DNA of 64,000 nt from a virus. Of this stretch, positions 21,060-25,863 are shown one piece after another; positions within the stretch are counted from its first letter, which is position 1; the number at the start of each line of letters is the position of its first letter. The notes under the pieces are model-generated. The model searched no databases, had not been told where the DNA came from, and worked only from the letters and a program-made list of their open reading frames with translations. The stretch is taken from UHGV virus genome UHGV-0124283; one strand, written 5' to 3'. Made by a program: the position numbers and the translations under genes.

Positions 21060-21650
<591 letters not shown>

Positions 21651-21779
21651 TTACCCGATTCTACGAGTTGTCATTTGTTACCGGTCAGTCTACACATTTC
21701 AGATGCTGCGTTAAAAAACCCAAGTACTTCAAGTAGCACATCGTCATCAACACCCAGCCCCAAGATACGGTGATAAAAT

Positions 21780-22814
21780 TCAAGCCTTAAGAGGCTTTGT
21801 GTATGTTCGTGTAATCCATCCAGTAATAAACTCGTCCCCTGATTTAACCTGCACGAAAAGCCATTGGCGATCTTTTTTATCTAAAACAGCCACTATAGTA
21901 TTTTTGCCAATGCATTCAATCACCTCACTATTTATAGAAGGACTGACGTGTAATCTTACGTTCTCACCAGTTATAAAACGAAAACCATTGAGATCTTCCC
22001 AACTAATTTCTTTGTTTTCTTTAATTAATTGTTGTTTTGATATTGGTTTATCCTCAAACAGAGATATAAAATATGATTCTGCCTTGTGTATTCCCAGCAA
22101 GGTTTTCTCTTTTCCGTAATCAATAAAAGCACCAAACACAACTTGAGAAAATATAACCATTAGTAACCATTGCAGTGGATAAGGAAGCTCTTTAAATGAA
22201 TCAACAAACTTTGAGCTAGGTTTATTTAATCCTTTATTTTGAACATTACTTTTGGTGTGTGATGTTTCAGTAGCACCTTCAGCATAAGCCTGCGCAATAG
22301 ATGAAATCCCCTGCTCTATTATTTGATGTAATGAAGCATTTCTTGTTCTAGCATAGTGATCTAGTACTTTCTTTATGTCTTGGCTTACATCTATTTTATA
22401 ACTTGCACTTTGTTGTAATTCTTTAAGTATCGCTTGCATGTTATTTAAACCAGCTTGCTTATTAAGCACCTCAAGCTGTTTTCGTAATGGCATAGCTATT
22501 TCGGCCTGTTTCCTTAGCATTTGAATATATCTATTTGCATCATGAGGGAAAAGAGCCTGAGTCTGTTTCTGTAAAATCGCGATATGTTCACGATACTTGC
22601 TGCCTATTCCAGCCAAGTTCGGTATACTAGCCAATTGTTTTCGAAGAGAGTTACTAATTACAGCTTGTCTATTCAATCTTGGCATATTTTGAAAAGAATG
22701 TTTTTCTATTCCTAATTGTTTTTGCAAGATCGCTACGTGATCTTTGTATGATGGAATGAGCACTGACTGTTTATACAGCAACTTCAACTCATTAGAATTA
22801 GTAATTTTTGTCAT
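21780..22814 (-). CDS. AT-rich accessory protein: N-terminal helical repeats, one TM helix, C-terminal SH3b-like domain
   Basis: 344 aa; three ~30-aa repeats with ILQKQ / LRKQL cores; hydrophobic LQWLLMVIFSQVVFGAFIDYG; C-terminal ...EFITGWITRTYTKPL; strongly AT-rich codons. Confidence 0.5.
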   Translation of the reverse strand: MTKITNSNELKLLYKQSVLIPSYKDHVAILQKQLGIEKHSFQNMPRLNRQAVISNSLRKQLASIPNLAGIGSKYREHIAILQKQTQALFPHDANRYIQMLRKQAEIAMPLRKQLEVLNKQAGLNNMQAILKELQQSASYKIDVSQDIKKVLDHYARTRNASLHQIIEQGISSIAQAYAEGATETSHTKSNVQNKGLNKPSSKFVDSFKELPYPLQWLLMVIFSQVVFGAFIDYGKEKTLLGIHKAESYFISLFEDKPISKQQLIKENKEISWEDLNGFRFITGENVRLHVSPSINSEVIECIGKNTIVAVLDKKDRQWLFVQVKSGDEFITGWITRTYTKPLKA

Positions 22815-22888
22815 ATTATTCCATTTCTATAATAGAATATTACGCAACCAATGTTTTATTGATTGCGTTAATCTTTAACACAGAAAGA

Positions 22889-23365
22889 TCATTTGCCTCG
22901 TTTAATACATCCATCCATTTTGGCTTGTTGATACAACTTACTTAGCCCAGAAAGAGGGAATGTAGCAATTTTTTCATTATCAACATAAGCATCAATCATA
23001 TTAGCATTTGAATCTGCTGCATCTTGCCAAAAGGCATACCACCAAGAATCTCCAACCATTGATCCAAGATTGCTAAAAGGATATTGATCACCATCTATAG
23101 TTAATACTATTTTATTCTTGTCAGCATTATACTCTTTTTTATTATTCGACGAACTTAGCAACAAGCCTAAACTACCTGCACTATCTGGTGAACCATACAT
23201 GAATCCCATATCACATAAAAAACTTATCTTATCACCATTATGATTATGGATTGTATATTCTCTCCCCCCTCTCTCTTCAATTACATTCCATTGTAGAGGA
23301 TCAATTTTTGCAAATGTTCCTGCTGAAACTAACGATACAAATAATAAAAACCATCTCATATTCAT
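22889..23365 (-). CDS. secreted/periplasmic protein
   Basis: 158 aa; signal peptide MNMRWFLLFVSLVSAGTFA; two Cys; AT-rich. Confidence 0.5.
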   Translation of the reverse strand: MNMRWFLLFVSLVSAGTFAKIDPLQWNVIEERGGREYTIHNHNGDKISFLCDMGFMYGSPDSAGSLGLLLSSSNNKKEYNADKNKIVLTIDGDQYPFSNLGSMVGDSWWYAFWQDAADSNANMIDAYVDNEKIATFPLSGLSKLYQQAKMDGCIKRGK

Positions 23366-23387
23366 TCTTTTCGCTTCTTATCTGTAA

Positions 23388-23738
23388 TTATTCTGCAATA
23401 TCATTTGCCCATTGCACGGCAGCAAAATGAGTACCCAAACCACTCAGGAAAGCAATTACCCCCAAAACAATACTTGCTGCTGTTGATTCAAACAAAGTAC
23501 CAATACTATAGCCAATAGCTCCCCATACTAAGCTAAATACAATCATCAATGGTATTGCTAGAAATTTTATTCTTAAACTAAAAATCAGTCCAAGAAAAGA
23601 ACCGCCAAAGGCCCACCATGATTTAGACATTAAACCTATCAGTATTGACAGAATTCCTATTTCAATAAAGAGAATATTAGATTGCTCTTCATTGAATTTC
23701 GCATTTGTTACACCTTTACGAACATGTTCAGATGACAT
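23388..23738 (-). CDS. small polytopic inner-membrane protein
   Basis: 116 aa with three to four hydrophobic helices; AGGAG RBS 9 nt upstream; first gene of minus-strand operon. Confidence 0.5.
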   Translation of the reverse strand: MSSEHVRKGVTNAKFNEEQSNILFIEIGILSILIGLMSKSWWAFGGSFLGLIFSLRIKFLAIPLMIVFSLVWGAIGYSIGTLFESTAASIVLGVIAFLSGLGTHFAAVQWANDIAE

Positions 23739-23787
23739 GATTAACTATCTCCTGCCACAGATAAAACGCCTTAAAATAACATTTTGT

Positions 23788-23827
23788 AGCATAAAGTTTC
23801 ACCATGCAATGGTCAAAATCTTTGACC
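23788..23827 (-). promoter_or_regulatory. sigma70-like promoter for the AT-rich operon with inverted repeat over the -35
   Basis: Minus strand TTGACC-N17-TATGCT (plus coords 23811-23816 and 23788-23793); inverted repeat GGTCAAA-atc-TTTGACC at 23811-23827. Confidence 0.4.
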
Positions 23828-23884
23828 CATATCAATTAAACTCATACATTTTAGTTACCAGAGAAATAATTTACATGGTTGCAA

Positions 23885-23901
23885 GTTGCTCTAATTATTT
23901 T
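23885..23901 (+). promoter_or_regulatory. C1-operator-like site (immI Op51 position)
   Basis: GTTGCTCTAATTATTTT versus consensus ATTGCTCTAATAAATTT. Confidence 0.45.
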
Positions 23902-24099
23902 ATTTTTTTAGCTTCATATGCTACATTAACTTGCTTGCGTGCTAATGCATTTTCGGTTTATCCTAAACAGGCATCTTAGTAACACGGATGCCGGGATTGG
24001 AACCCCGGATAATGCAAAAGGCGACATAGACGCCAAAAGCGTCTTTTTTTGTGTCATGCCATCGCACAACCATACGTAGCACATAGCTCCGAGATCAAT

Positions 24100-24175
24100 G
24101 GTAGTGCTGGCTGGGCTGCCGAAAGGCAGGCCGGTTCCCTTTTGCGCCGGTAGTTCCAACCCAGTCAGTGCTACC
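24100..24175 (+). ncRNA. c4: structured RNA upstream of icd-ant; candidate c4-type antisense repressor RNA or its precursor
   Basis: 16-bp helix (24100-24115 with 24160-24175) containing three G-U pairs that pair only in the plus-strand transcript; internal hairpin ctgcc-gaaag-gcagg. Confidence 0.35.
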
Positions 24176-24235
24176 GCCATTGAGATTGGAACCTCACGCG
24201 GTAGCTCCTTAAATTAGCAAAAGGAGGCTGCCATT

Positions 24236-24457
24236 GTGGCTACTATCCCTACCCCTACTCATCCTGAATTTATCTGGCGCTTTTACTCCTGCCAAAAACA
24301 CCACTATCACTTCGTTATCGCAGCAACAGAAGACGAAGCACGCTCTCAATTGCCTGATGGCCCCTGCATTTTTACTGCCCGTTTTTCAACTAACTCGCGC
24401 AATTCACTTAGTTACTGGAGCCTCCCCTTCTCTGCCGACGTTCAGGGGGGTTTATGA
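24236..24457 (+). CDS. icd: Icd-like small protein (cell division inhibitor of immI region)
   Basis: 73 aa; GTG start 8 nt after AAGGAGG; stop overlaps ant start. Confidence 0.55.
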   Translation: MATIPTPTHPEFIWRFYSCQKHHYHFVIAATEDEARSQLPDGPCIFTARFSTNSRNSLSYWSLPFSADVQGGL

Positions 24458-25863
24458 AAACACCTCTCGTCACCCGTAATGAAATAGCCGAAGCGATCGC
24501 CTTGCATACTGCCTGTATGCCGACACGGGAGATCCCCGGCGCAATTGCTAACTATTTCATGATAACCAGACGTTTTTATACCCGAACAGATAAGGCTGTG
24601 ATCAACAGGCTACTGATAGCCGAGATCAGGGATTATTTGATTGAACAAGGACGTCTACGTTACGCAACAGTGGCAGCAGAAATGAGAAAGGAGGCACATA
24701 GAATGACCGGTAATAATTTAAATGTTGAAAAAACAGCACCTGTTGCTTCAGCTACGCCATCACCAGCTGTGAATGTTATCTCCAACACTGGAGACACAAT
24801 CGACAGCCAGACACTGTTAAAGATGGTCAATGAAGCGCGTAAGTTATGTGGGGAACCAGAGGTTCGGAACAACAAATTCATCGAAAAAATACTCGACGAA
24901 TTAGAAGGTGAGGACGGTTACACAAAAAGTGCAACCGTGCCGCCAGGTGGCGGTACGCCTATGGTTGTCATAACCATGACCTACAAACAAGCCCTGCGAG
25001 TTGCCGCGCGCGAGTCAAAAGCGGTCCGCCGTTCGCTACATACCATGATTCAGGCATTGGAACCTATAAATGTTGAAAATCATCCTGATGAAATTCCCGT
25101 TCTGGAATGGCAGGGAGTACGCGTCGTGACAACCGAGACTCTTGCTAGAGGGTATGGCACTACACCTACTCGTATTCAGCAGAACTACAATCGCAATGAA
25201 GAACGATTTGTAGAGGGTAAACACTTCTTTAAAATCAAAGGAGATGAGATAAAAAGTTTGCGACTATCTTTTAGCGAGTTGCAAATTTCCCCCAAGACCA
25301 GATCCTTAATACTCTGGACCGAACGCGGAGCGGCACGCATGTCTAAGATCGTAGACACAGAGCAAGCGTGGGCATTCTTTGAAAAACTGGAAGACAGCTA
25401 CTTCCGGCAAAAAGAACAGCAACCGGTCGCAATCCCCCAGACGCTTCCCGAAGCTCTGCGCCTGGCTGCCGAGCTGGCTGAACAAAAGCAGCTACTGGAA
25501 CAGAAAACCCACCAGCTAAATCAACAGCTGGTGGCCGCAGCCCCTAAAGTCGATTTTGCCGACCGGGTATCAGCGGCTAATGGAATCCTGATCGGGAACT
25601 TTGCAAAGGTCGTTGGACTTAAGCAAAACGCCCTTTTCTCATGGTTGCGCCAGAACGGCATTCTCATGGCTTTTGGTGCGCGCAAAAACGTACCGCGCCA
25701 GCAGTACATTAACGCCGGGTATTTCACGGTGAAAGAAGTGGTGCTGGATGATGAAAATGGCTACCAGATACGGCTGACGCCCCAATTAACGGGTAAAGGC
25801 CAGCAGTGGTTAACTCGCAAGCTACTTGATGCTGGTTTGTTAAAACCAGTAGCAATAGGTTAA
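24454..25863 (+). CDS. ant: antirepressor (ORF6N/Bro-N-like and KilA-C domains)
   Basis: 469 aa; C-terminal ...AAPKVDFADRVSAANGILIGNFAKVVGL...LTGKGQQWLTRKLLDAGLL antirepressor signature. Confidence 0.8.
   Translation: MKTPLVTRNEIAEAIALHTACMPTREIPGAIANYFMITRRFYTRTDKAVINRLLIAEIRDYLIEQGRLRYATVAAEMRKEAHRMTGNNLNVEKTAPVASATPSPAVNVISNTGDTIDSQTLLKMVNEARKLCGEPEVRNNKFIEKILDELEGEDGYTKSATVPPGGGTPMVVITMTYKQALRVAARESKAVRRSLHTMIQALEPINVENHPDEIPVLEWQGVRVVTTETLARGYGTTPTRIQQNYNRNEERFVEGKHFFKIKGDEIKSLRLSFSELQISPKTRSLILWTERGAARMSKIVDTEQAWAFFEKLEDSYFRQKEQQPVAIPQTLPEALRLAAELAEQKQLLEQKTHQLNQQLVAAAPKVDFADRVSAANGILIGNFAKVVGLKQNALFSWLRQNGILMAFGARKNVPRQQYINAGYFTVKEVVLDDENGYQIRLTPQLTGKGQQWLTRKLLDAGLLKPVAIG

What the first reader, a model, noticed from the sequence alone, without database searches (positions are those of the whole stretch)
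21780..23830. AT-rich three-gene membrane/secreted operon divergent from the immI (c4-icd-ant) region
Three co-oriented minus-strand genes (polytopic 116-aa membrane protein; 158-aa signal-peptide protein; 344-aa protein with three ~30-aa helical repeats, one TM helix and a C-terminal SH3b-like domain) form a visibly AT-rich island inside an otherwise ~50 percent GC backbone. It has its own promoter (TTGACC-N17-TATGCT) whose -35 is covered by a 7-bp inverted repeat (GGTCAAA-atc-TTTGACC), and a C1-operator-like site lies ~60 bp away. The position next to immI is where P1-type phages carry superinfection-exclusion functions. I do not recognise any of the three proteins as a described family. The envelope localisation suggests an entry-blocking or abortive-infection module.
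Basis: partly seen in the sequence, partly recalled or inferred. Interest (0 to 1): 0.8.

Follow-up and report, generated by a model that had tools for sequence, protein, structure and literature searches.

The report
Envelope-protein cassette in P1 sim slot
A P1-like phage-plasmid carries, where phage P1 keeps its superinfection-exclusion genes (simABC), an unrelated low-GC set of three membrane or periplasmic protein genes; they are real genes of untested function and are most plausibly another way of blocking incoming phages.

Summary
The three minus-strand genes and the AT-rich island (about 21688-23885; 31-37% GC against about 47-50% in the flanks) are real. They lie between pmgC and Op51/c4/icd/ant, which is exactly the simABC slot of phage P1. 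This slot is already published as a low-GC hypervariable region of P1-like phage-plasmids.

The cassette is not one indivisible operon. It has two modules:
- **g1 + g2:** a small four-helix inner-membrane protein tightly followed by a periplasmic protein of the Pfam YfjT family (PF27224, uncharacterised).
- **g3:** a single-pass membrane protein with a nearly invariant C-terminal SH3b domain and a hypervariable, repeat-built, basic N-terminal domain. It is set off by a strongly structured spacer, is replaced in sister plasmids, and is a solo gene in more distant phage-plasmids.

None of the three resembles SimA/B/C or any PADLOC defence model. At least eight alternative cassettes occupy this slot, and all encode exported or membrane proteins. 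dN/dS is 0.07-0.31, so all three genes are under purifying selection.

My best reading, at about 0.4, is a prophage-expressed entry-blocking module that works like Sim or T4 Imm/Sp. This rests on position and predicted location only. I rate it a moderately interesting new variant of a known kind.

The parts
21688..23885 (.). Low-GC accessory island, about 2.2 kb, occupying the sim slot of a P1-like phage-plasmid.
   Evidence: GC is 0.31-0.37 inside and 0.46-0.52 outside. P1/P7 DNA similarity stops at about 21680-21687, and similarity to JL22/RCS47/D6 resumes at 23886.
23388..23738 (-). g1: a 116-aa small inner-membrane protein with four hydrophobic segments and an invariant N-terminal motif VRKGxTNAKFNEE (PHROG 15014, no Pfam family).
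   Evidence: dN/dS is 0.07. A strong SD (AGGAGA) lies 8 nt upstream of the ATG.
22889..23365 (-). g2: a 158-aa secreted (periplasmic) protein of the YfjT family (Pfam PF27224, PHROG 3429). It has a signal peptide at 1-19 and conserved C51/C153, W26 and W109.
   Evidence: The AF2 model has pLDDT 86.7. The gene starts 22 nt after the g1 stop.
22815..22888 (-). Structured g2-g3 spacer with three hairpins. One has an 11-bp stem (22868..22842) followed by a U-rich tail, and one covers the g3 ribosome-binding region.
   Evidence: RNA fold MFE is -23.0 kcal/mol, against -9.8 +/- 2.5 for shuffles (z = -5.3). It also appears as a terminator-like hit.
21780..22814 (-). g3: a 344-aa single-pass membrane protein. 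It has a basic, helical, repeat-built N-terminal domain (1-212), a TM helix at about 213-234 and a C-terminal SH3b domain at about 278-340 (PHROG 7086).
21782..21797 (-). Palindromic hairpin overlapping the g3 stop codon (AAGCCTCTTAAGGCTT). It is terminator-like on both strands.
   Evidence: The fold is and is not significant (z = -1.35).
23788..23816 (-). Sigma-70-like promoter candidate for g1-g2: TTGACC-N17-TATGCT.
   Evidence: The match is 9/12 and is not enriched over shuffles. Homology with the SimA-containing variant L004 ends at 23784, just downstream of the -10.
23811..23827 (.). 7-bp inverted repeat GGTCAAA-atc-TTTGACC, which places a TTGACC hexamer on each strand.
   Evidence: I12.
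23885..23901 (+). C1-operator-like site (GTTGCTCTAATTATTTT, 3 mismatches). It is the positional equivalent of P1 Op51/Oc4, which controls c4-icd-ant.
   Evidence: 9 operator matches in the window against 0.34 expected. The P1 annotation is and the P7 annotation.
21060..21626 (-). Left flank: pmgC, the first gene of the late pmgC-tub-pmgB-sit operon. The LPsit-region inverted repeat lies at 21627-21673.
   Evidence: I1.
23971..24457 (+). Right flank (immI): isrK-like RNA (23971-24049), C4 antisense RNA (24094-24181) and icd (24236-24457), followed by ant (24454-25863).
Evidence: Rfam hits at 55.1 and 76.7 bits.

Best explanation
**What it is.** The region is a horizontally acquired, prophage-borne accessory cassette. 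It sits in the sim slot of a P1-like IncY phage-plasmid, which is the hypervariable locus between the late tail operon and immI where P1 encodes its periplasmic superinfection-exclusion proteins.

**Its two modules.**
- Module 1 is g1 plus g2. g1 is a strongly conserved four-helix inner-membrane protein. g2 is a fast-diverging periplasmic protein of the YfjT family with one predicted disulfide.
- Module 2 is g3. I infer that its basic, hypervariable, repeat-built N-terminal domain is cytoplasmic and that its near-invariant SH3b domain faces the periplasm and peptidoglycan.

**Most likely function (inferred, not shown).** The lysogen expresses the cassette and it acts at the cell envelope to stop superinfecting phages after adsorption and before DNA reaches the cytoplasm.
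- g1 would occupy or alter an inner-membrane passage, as T4 Imm does.
- g2 would bind a component of the incoming tail tip or its transglycosylase in the periplasm, as T4 Sp does and presumably P1 SimC.
- g3 would be an independent, peptidoglycan-tethered add-on.

**Shown versus inferred.** Gene reality, location signals, locus identity, modularity and variability are shown. Expression in lysogens, topology and the exclusion activity are inferred.
For: - **Locus identity.** The flanks match P1 pmgC/LPsit and the c4-icd-ant region, and the cassette replaces simCBA. The sim genes are annotated as superimmunity genes and are dispensable for P1 plaque formation, whereas pmgC is essential (PMC10695390).
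- **An envelope theme across the slot.** Every alternative I catalogued at this slot encodes exported or membrane proteins. These are SimA/B/C (signal peptides), full-length SimA, YfjT-family proteins, g1, the SH3b protein, a multi-helix-membrane DUF4760 protein, and the P7 lipoprotein plus DUF5384.
- **Recurrence of YfjT proteins.** YfjT-family proteins recur at the slot in E. coli, Salmonella and Cronobacter P1-like phages as alleles only 28-57% identical.
- **Contrasting divergence of g1 and g2.** Between the E. coli and Salmonella cassettes g1 stays 73% identical while g2 falls to 28%. This fits a conserved host-facing part and a fast-evolving phage-facing part.
- **Mosaic g3.** The N-terminal segments have about 30% mean pairwise identity and the SH3b domain 79%.
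- **Purifying selection.** dN/dS is 0.07, 0.2 and 0.31 for g1, g2 and g3.
- **Independent transcription.** A sigma-70-like promoter and a strong SD precede g1, and the cassette lies outside the late operon.
- **A similar arrangement elsewhere.** A small membrane protein sits directly upstream of a YfjT gene in K-12 cryptic prophage CP4-57 (ypjK-yfjS-yfjT) and in an Enterobacter chromosome.
- **Precedent for the mechanism.** T4 Imm (membrane) and Sp (periplasmic inhibitor of the gp5 lysozyme) act this way (PMC9311878).
Against: - No sequence or profile similarity to SimA/B/C.
- No PADLOC hits and no Pfam superinfection-exclusion family hit.
- The promoter match is no better than chance.
- There are no expression or phenotype data for this cassette or for YfjT in the searchable literature.
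- g1 homologues occur in non-phage contexts in Vibrio and in metagenomes.
- A YfjT homologue occurs in lytic jumbo Serratia phages. The family is therefore not restricted to prophage exclusion loci.
Confidence: 0.4

Rival explanations
1. The cassette is a lysogenic-conversion envelope module unrelated to phage exclusion. It would protect or remodel the cell envelope of the lysogen, for example as immunity against periplasm-acting toxins (colicins, T6SS peptidoglycan hydrolases, host lysozyme) or as a stress or colonisation factor.
For: - Small secreted disulfide-bonded proteins paired with small membrane proteins are typical immunity or conversion genes.
- A YfjT homologue lies about 1.5 kb from a T6SS hcp gene in an Enterobacter chromosome.
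- P7 carries an outer-membrane lipoprotein at the same slot.
- g1 homologues occur outside phages.
Against: - The only experimentally defined function at this slot is phage exclusion (Sim).
- Nearly all copies are on P1-like phage-plasmids: 115 of 116 places in E. coli genomes are on plasmids.
- The YfjT family also occurs in strictly lytic jumbo phages, where conversion of a lysogen makes no sense.
Confidence: 0.2
2. g3 is a membrane-anchored abortive-infection or sensor-effector protein. Its hypervariable cytoplasmic repeat domain would recognise a phage protein, and the membrane helix and peptidoglycan-bound SH3b domain would then damage the envelope or halt growth. g1-g2 would be a separate system.
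For: - g3 shows extreme mosaic diversification of the N-terminal domain with a near-invariant TM and SH3b part.
- g3 is a free-standing, oppositely oriented solo gene in distant phage-plasmids.
- In sister plasmids g3 is replaced by another membrane protein, DUF4760.
- The N-terminal domain has a net charge of +14, which fits a cytoplasmic location.
Against: - No enzymatic or pore-forming domain is detectable.
- There are no PADLOC hits.
- The AF2 model of the N-terminal domain is uninformative, with pLDDT below 50.
- The topology is inferred only from charge and from the absence of a signal peptide.
Confidence: 0.15
3. The genes serve the phage's own life cycle, for example in lysis timing, virion release, injection or host range, and act on the resident phage rather than on competitors.
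For: - SH3b domains are common cell-wall-binding modules of phage lysins; a weak PHROG amidase hit covers g3 residues 276-342 (E 0.009).
- The cassette adjoins the tail/Sit (injection transglycosylase) operon.
- A YfjT homologue is present in lytic jumbo phages.
Against: - The cassette is absent from most P1-like phages, including the viable P1, P7 and Ro157c2YLVW. It therefore cannot be a required morphogenetic or lysis function.
- No catalytic domain accompanies the SH3b domain.
- The cassette lies upstream of, and outside, the late promoter LPsit.
Confidence: 0.1

Closest known systems
Phage P1 simA-simB-simC (superimmunity / superinfection exclusion locus)
   Same: - Same genomic slot between pmgC/LPsit and Op51-c4-icd-ant, and same orientation, divergent from immI.
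- Same low GC (P1 sim 0.34).
- A small multi-gene set whose products are all exported or membrane proteins.
- Dispensable for lytic growth in P1.
   Different: - No detectable sequence or profile similarity.
- P1 has three signal-peptide proteins and no polytopic membrane protein or SH3b protein.
- Exclusion is demonstrated for P1 Sim (own knowledge: Devlin 1982; Kliem & Dreiseikelmann 1989; Maillou & Dreiseikelmann 1990). It is not demonstrated for this cassette.
Phage T4 Imm + Sp (Spackle) superinfection exclusion
   Same: The proposed division of labour is the same: a small inner-membrane protein plus a small periplasmic protein acting on DNA entry or on the tail lysozyme (PMC9311878).
   Different: - No homology, with no Pfam or PHROG link.
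- imm and sp are separate genes of a lytic phage, whereas here the two genes are a tight pair in a prophage.
- The resemblance is of mechanism only and is untested.
E. coli K-12 cryptic prophage CP4-57 ypjK-yfjS-yfjT
   Same: - g2 is a true homologue of YfjT: 28% identity with E 2e-10 pairwise, profile E 2e-36, and Pfam PF27224.
- In both cases the YfjT gene is immediately preceded by a small hydrophobic membrane-protein gene in a prophage accessory region.
   Different: - g1 is not similar to YpjK or YfjS.
- K-12 has an extra lipoprotein and no SH3b gene.
- The K-12 genes are themselves uncharacterised.
Phage P7 upf50.5 (lipoprotein) + upf50.0 (DUF5384), and other sim-slot cassettes of P1-like phage-plasmids
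   Same: These are alternative occupants of the identical slot. They are also low in GC and also encode exported or membrane proteins. The slot is published as 'highly variable region 4' (PMC9603915).
   Different: The protein families are different, and their function is equally unknown.

Membership tests
P1 Sim (SimA/SimB/SimC) superinfection-exclusion proteins | Sequence homology to SimA, SimB or SimC | tested here: not met
   BLASTP best E is above 1. hhalign of the g2 family profile against SimC, SimB and full-length SimA gives probabilities below 1%, covering signal peptides only.
P1 Sim (SimA/SimB/SimC) superinfection-exclusion proteins | Location between pmgC and the c4-icd-ant immI operon, divergently oriented from immI | tested here: met
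   The flanks align to P1 and P7, and the cassette replaces simCBA.
P1 Sim (SimA/SimB/SimC) superinfection-exclusion proteins | Exported (signal-peptide-processed) product | tested here: inconclusive
   g2 has a canonical n-h-c signal sequence with T-F-A at positions -3 to -1, and its homologues all do too. No signal-peptide predictor or experiment was available.
P1 Sim (SimA/SimB/SimC) superinfection-exclusion proteins | Blocks infection after adsorption and before DNA entry | not testable with these tools
   This needs phage challenge, adsorption and DNA-entry assays.
Pfam YfjT family (PF27224), for g2 | Significant match to the family, or homology to E. coli K-12 YfjT | tested here: met
   The nearest clusters of g2 and the Salmonella sim-slot homologue carry precomputed PF27224 'YfjT'. 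g2 against K-12 YfjT gives E 2e-10, and the A2 profile against YfjT gives E 2e-36. The model itself is not in the local Pfam copy.
Bacterial SH3 domain SH3_3 (PF08239), for the g3 C-terminus | Match to the Pfam model at or above the gathering score | tested here: inconclusive
   The window protein scores 26.0 bits against a cut-off of 27 (E 1.1e-5, residues 285-338). All 32 aligned family members match at E <= 1e-3, with a best E of 2.3e-9. Precomputed PF08239 is present on most homologues. The AF2 model shows a beta-strand domain at pLDDT 57-73 only.
Known anti-phage defence systems (PADLOC-DB v2) | Match of any of the three proteins to a defence-system model | tested here: not met
   No hits at E <= 1 for g1, g2 or g3. 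There are also none for DUF4760, full-length SimA, SimC, SimB or the Ro157 YfjT homologue.
T4 Imm / Sp exclusion proteins | Sequence homology (Pfam or PHROG family shared with Imm or Sp) | tested here: not met
   The Pfam and PHROG scans returned only the SH3_3 match and unknown-function PHROGs.
Single three-gene operon | The three genes are always co-inherited and co-transcribed | tested here: not met
   g1-g2 occur without g3 (L003, L009/10). g3 homologues occur with other partners (L018) or alone (L007, L008). The 74-nt g2-g3 spacer folds into three hairpins with z = -5.3. Co-transcription itself cannot be tested here.

The most novel reading that the evidence does not exclude
The sim slot of P1-like phage-plasmids would be a combinatorial envelope-exclusion locus, with YfjT-family periplasmic proteins as a previously unrecognised, fast-evolving class of superinfection-exclusion factors. 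These proteins have so far been pure 'y-ome', including K-12 YfjT. They would work together with interchangeable membrane partners (g1, full-length SimA). The SH3b protein g3, tethered to peptidoglycan and carrying a shuffled repeat domain, would be a second, new type of membrane-anchored anti-phage determinant.
Probability: 0.3. Interest if true: 0.65.

Novelty: new variant of a known kind. Interest (0 to 1): 0.45.

Why it matters
- **A function for YfjT.** If the cassette excludes phages, it would give a first function to the YfjT family. That family is present in E. coli K-12 itself, in P1-like phages of several genera and in jumbo phages.
- **Competition between phage-plasmids.** It would show that P1-like phage-plasmids, which are clinically relevant carriers of ESBL and mcr genes, swap envelope-level exclusion modules at one hotspot. 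That would shape which phage-plasmids can co-infect or displace each other, and which therapeutic phages work on lysogens.
- **Mechanism of Sim-type exclusion.** That mechanism has been unresolved since the 1980s. A set of non-homologous alternatives at one locus would give comparative handles on it.
- **If there is no phenotype.** The finding then remains an ordinary accessory cassette in an already described variable region.

Tried and rejected
- **Homology to Sim proteins:** BLASTP and profile comparison found none.
- **Family and defence libraries:** PADLOC, NCBIfam and the local Pfam gave nothing beyond SH3_3.
- **Phage records:** megablast found only the flanks, and tblastn with g3 found nothing.
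- **PDB sequence searches:** there was no meaningful hit for g2 or its family profile. The g3 family profile hit only generic helical-repeat proteins (HP0242 chimera at E 6e-4, ApoA-IV), which I treat as compositional.
- **AF2 of g3:** mean pLDDT was 47, and the Foldseek matches to it are meaningless.
- **Repeat proteins among the g2 hits:** long repeat proteins in the exhaustive HMMER search (P0072, P0077, P0083) look spurious or compositional.
- **Genome-wide locus search with the broad YfjT alignment:** it failed because no conserved stretch was found. A narrower alignment found only two loci.
- **Inverted repeat as an operator:** this is not supported beyond its presence. Promoter-like sites are not enriched.
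- **g1 as a holin:** I rejected this by inspection, because g1 has no charged basic C-terminus and is conserved outside phages.
- **Literature:** searches on yfjT, ypjK, yfjS, DUF4760 and phage-plasmid exclusion found no functional data.
Full report
**1. What is in the sequence**

The ORF listing finds the three minus-strand ORFs exactly as described:
- g1 at 23388-23738, 116 aa
- g2 at 22889-23365, 158 aa
- g3 at 21780-22814, 344 aa

GC falls to 0.31-0.37 between about 21800 and 24000. It is 0.46-0.52 on both sides.

The ORFs are real genes:
- Each matches a PHROG of unknown function very strongly: phrog_15014, phrog_3429 and phrog_7086, with E from 1e-71 to 1e-184.
- Each has homologues elsewhere.
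- Against sister plasmids, dN/dS is 0.07 for g1, about 0.2 for g2 and 0.31 for g3. The substitution counts are small.

**2. Where it is**

The window is a P1-like IncY phage-plasmid; an identical segment lies in E. coli plasmid NZ_AP022163.
- To the left are pmgC (21060-21626), tub, pmgB and sit.
- To the right are a C1-operator-like site (23885-23901), an isrK-like RNA (23971-24049), the C4 antisense RNA (24094-24181), icd (24236-24457) and ant.

In P1 the same interval holds simC-simB-simA, PsimA, Op51 and the c4 promoters.
- P1 and P7 DNA similarity ends about 80-88 bp beyond pmgC.
- Similarity to JL22, RCS47 and D6 resumes at window 23886.
- The island is therefore about 21688-23885, and it replaces simABC precisely.

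The sim region has already been published as one of eight low-GC "highly variable regions" of P1-like phage-plasmids (PMC9603915). A CRISPRi screen found the sim genes dispensable for P1 plaque formation and pmgC essential (PMC10695390).

**3. The three proteins**

*g1*
- It has four hydrophobic segments (about 21-37, 41-55, 59-83 and 87-103). The only basic loop is RIK at 56-58, which fits an N-in/C-in inner-membrane protein that is almost fully buried.
- Homologues of 58-73% identity occur in Salmonella P1-like plasmids, Vibrio metschnikovii and metagenomes.
- The N-terminal tail VRKGxTNAKFNEE is invariant across them.
- No Pfam, NCBIfam or PADLOC family matches.

*g2*
- It has a canonical signal peptide and two conserved cysteines, C51 and C153.
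- The precomputed Pfam label of its nearest clusters and of its Salmonella counterpart is PF27224 "YfjT".
- I confirmed the homology directly against E. coli K-12 YfjT: pairwise E 2e-10 and family profile E 2e-36.
- An exhaustive HMMER search of 1.84 billion representatives found only 21 relatives. Most are signal-peptide proteins of about 150 aa.
- AF2 gives a confident model with pLDDT 86.7 and pTM 0.79. It is a beta-rich domain with one long helix.

*g3*
- It has a single hydrophobic helix at about 213-234.
- The C-terminal SH3_3 match scores 26.0 bits against a gathering cut-off of 27. All 32 aligned homologues match, with a best E of 2.3e-9.
- The N-terminal 212 residues are basic (30 K/R against 16 D/E), predicted helical, and built from two repeats of about 52 aa carrying six L[QRN]KQ motifs.
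- With no signal peptide and a net charge of +14, I infer that the N-terminal domain is cytoplasmic and the SH3b domain periplasmic.
- The family has 48 clusters. Every cluster that carries a source organism name is from Enterobacteriaceae (many carry none), and many lie on contigs of about 85-100 kb.
- It shows a striking gradient. Mean pairwise identity is about 30% in the three N-terminal segments, 49% in the TM-plus-linker segment and 79% in SH3b. Segments are mosaic between alleles, and repeat number varies, giving lengths of 325-481 aa.

**4. It is two modules, not one fixed operon**

- g1 and g2 are 22 nt apart and travel together. 52 PLSDB plasmids carry the pair, but only 27 carry all three genes.
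- A second group of plasmids has a plus-strand DUF4760 membrane protein in place of g3 (L003; further examples).
- A Salmonella P1-like element has full-length SimA + g1 + YfjT and no g3.
- g3 alleles also occur with a different YfjT allele and full-length SimA (L018).
- In Salmonella and Citrobacter phage-plasmids, g3 homologues of about 40% identity are solo, oppositely oriented genes in an early or accessory region next to Ulx-like and DarB-like genes.
- The 74-nt g2-g3 spacer is strongly structured. It folds into three hairpins with z = -5.3. One is an 11-bp terminator-like stem and one covers the g3 ribosome-binding site.

**5. The slot as a whole**

I catalogued at least eight cassette types by sampling P1-like plasmids and phages:
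- P1 simA(truncated)-simB-simC
- full-length SimA + YfjT (E. coli plasmids, phage Ro157c2YLVW, Cronobacter phage JK004)
- SimA + YfjT + SH3b
- g1 + YfjT + SH3b (this window)
- g1 + YfjT + DUF4760
- SimA + g1 + YfjT + SH3b
- SimA + g1 + YfjT
- P7-type lipoprotein + DUF5384

What they share:
- Those measured are low in GC, at 0.34-0.43.
- All encode exported or membrane proteins.
- YfjT-family genes are the commonest non-P1 component, as alleles only 28-57% identical.

Between the E. coli and Salmonella cassettes g1 remains 73% identical while the YfjT partner drops to 28%.

Prevalence:
- 137 of about 650-670 P1-like plasmids carry P1-type simABC and 27 carry this cassette.
- 37 of 5,426 complete E. 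coli genomes carry this cassette, and 115 of the 116 matching places are on plasmids.

**6. Regulation**

- TTGACC-N17-TATGCT (23816..23788, minus strand) and the 7-bp palindrome (23811-23827) are present.
- Promoter-like sites in this AT-rich DNA are not enriched: 8 found against 10.5 +/- 3.2 in shuffles.
- The palindrome also makes a plus-strand TTGACC with its own -10-like box. It may simply be two divergent -35 boxes.
- The C1-operator-like site is credible in context, because the window has 9 operator matches against 0.34 expected.
- That site is the positional equivalent of Op51, which controls c4-icd-ant. It lies 69 bp from the g1 -35, so C1 control of the cassette is not implied.
- The strong SD (AGGAGA) before g1, and the position upstream of and outside the late promoter LPsit, fit expression independent of the late operon.
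- Expression in lysogens remains an inference.

**7. Interpretation**

The best-supported reading is a prophage accessory cassette acting at the envelope, most plausibly in superinfection exclusion.

The arguments for it:
- The slot's only experimentally known function is Sim exclusion. By my own knowledge of Devlin 1982, Kliem & Dreiseikelmann 1989 and Maillou & Dreiseikelmann 1990, Sim is a processed periplasmic protein that blocks infection after adsorption.
- Every alternative at the slot is an envelope protein.
- The periplasmic component and the g3 N-terminal domain diversify quickly, while g1 and the SH3b domain are conserved.
- The pairing of a small inner-membrane protein with a periplasmic protein mirrors T4 Imm and Sp (PMC9311878).

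Against it, there is no homology to any known exclusion or defence protein, no phenotype and no expression evidence.

I put this reading at about 0.4. The rivals are:
- an envelope lysogenic-conversion or immunity function unrelated to phages, at about 0.2
- an abortive-infection or sensor role for g3, at about 0.15
- a role in the phage's own cycle, at about 0.1; this is weakened because viable P1, P7 and Ro157c2YLVW lack the cassette

**8. Novelty and score**

- The variable sim region, the P1-versus-P7 difference at this slot, and the database annotations ("SH3 domain-containing protein", "hypothetical protein") are all known.
- This analysis adds four things:
  - the exact placement of the cassette
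  - the two-module anatomy
  - the identification of g2 as a YfjT-family protein that recurs at the slot
  - the conserved-anchor, hypervariable-domain architecture of g3
- I rate it a new variant of a known kind. It is a reasonable and cheap experimental target, but a specialist would not find it very surprising. Interest is 0.45.

Noticed in passing
window 23971-24181: The immI leader carries two Rfam RNAs in tandem: an isrK-like Hfq-binding RNA (23971-24049, 55 bits, with its own terminator at 24028-24044) directly upstream of the C4 antisense RNA (24094-24181, 77 bits). P1 and P7 annotate only c4 here. RefSeq annotates a 39-aa 'ash family protein' ORF over part of the C4 RNA, which is probably spurious.
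   Followed up: partly
window 23886-24700: The c4/icd/ant region resembles phages JL22, RCS47 and D6 (86-93% identity), not P1 or P7. The ant gene is 469 aa, against 347 aa for P1 ant1. This suggests an immI specificity different from P1/P7, so the sim slot and immI type recombine independently.
   Followed up: no
L001 3913-4071 (P1 simA) versus L004 4704-5342, L014 2302-2949, L009 4234-4902 and L015 2901-3470: The 52-aa SimA of P1 is the N-terminal remnant of a periplasmic protein of about 190-222 aa. That protein is intact in many P1-like phage-plasmids of E. coli, Salmonella and Cronobacter (92% identity over the first about 50 residues).
   Followed up: partly
window 25942, 41395, 45694/45705, 55760, 59384/59433, 61525: There are eight further matches to the P1 C1 operator consensus ATTGCTCTAATAAATTT with 0-3 mismatches, against 0.34 expected for the whole window. 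This confirms a P1-type C1 regulon across the window.
   Followed up: no
L021 (JAFAFU010000002.1, labelled 'MAG: Bacillota bacterium'): This 2.9-kb contig encodes a YfjT homologue followed by pmgC, tub and pmgB that are nearly identical to those of E. coli P1-like phages. It is almost certainly a mis-binned enterobacterial phage-plasmid fragment.
   Followed up: partly
L022 3581-4444 (Enterobacter sp. chromosome): A chromosomal YfjT homologue is preceded at 42 nt by an unrelated 116-aa two-helix membrane protein. It lies about 1.5 kb from a T6SS hcp gene and an OmpA-like gene. This is another pairing of a small membrane protein with YfjT outside phages.
   Followed up: no
L016 2974-3417 (Serratia jumbo phage 2050HW gp245) and relatives: Lytic jumbo phages of Serratia and Pectobacterium (about 275 kb) encode distant YfjT-family proteins of about 25% identity. 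One is annotated 'putative adhesin' in BFVD.
   Followed up: no
window 21627-21673: A 21-nt imperfect inverted repeat (86% complementary) lies immediately upstream of pmgC. It overlaps the position of the late promoter LPsit as annotated in P1 and P7.
   Followed up: no
L011 439-1608 and L012: In two metagenomic contigs the g1 homologue (66% identity) follows a DUF4431 protein at a 12-nt gap. In a Vibrio contig it follows an AAA_15/AAA_21 ATPase gene. g1 therefore has partners other than YfjT outside P1-like elements.
   Followed up: no
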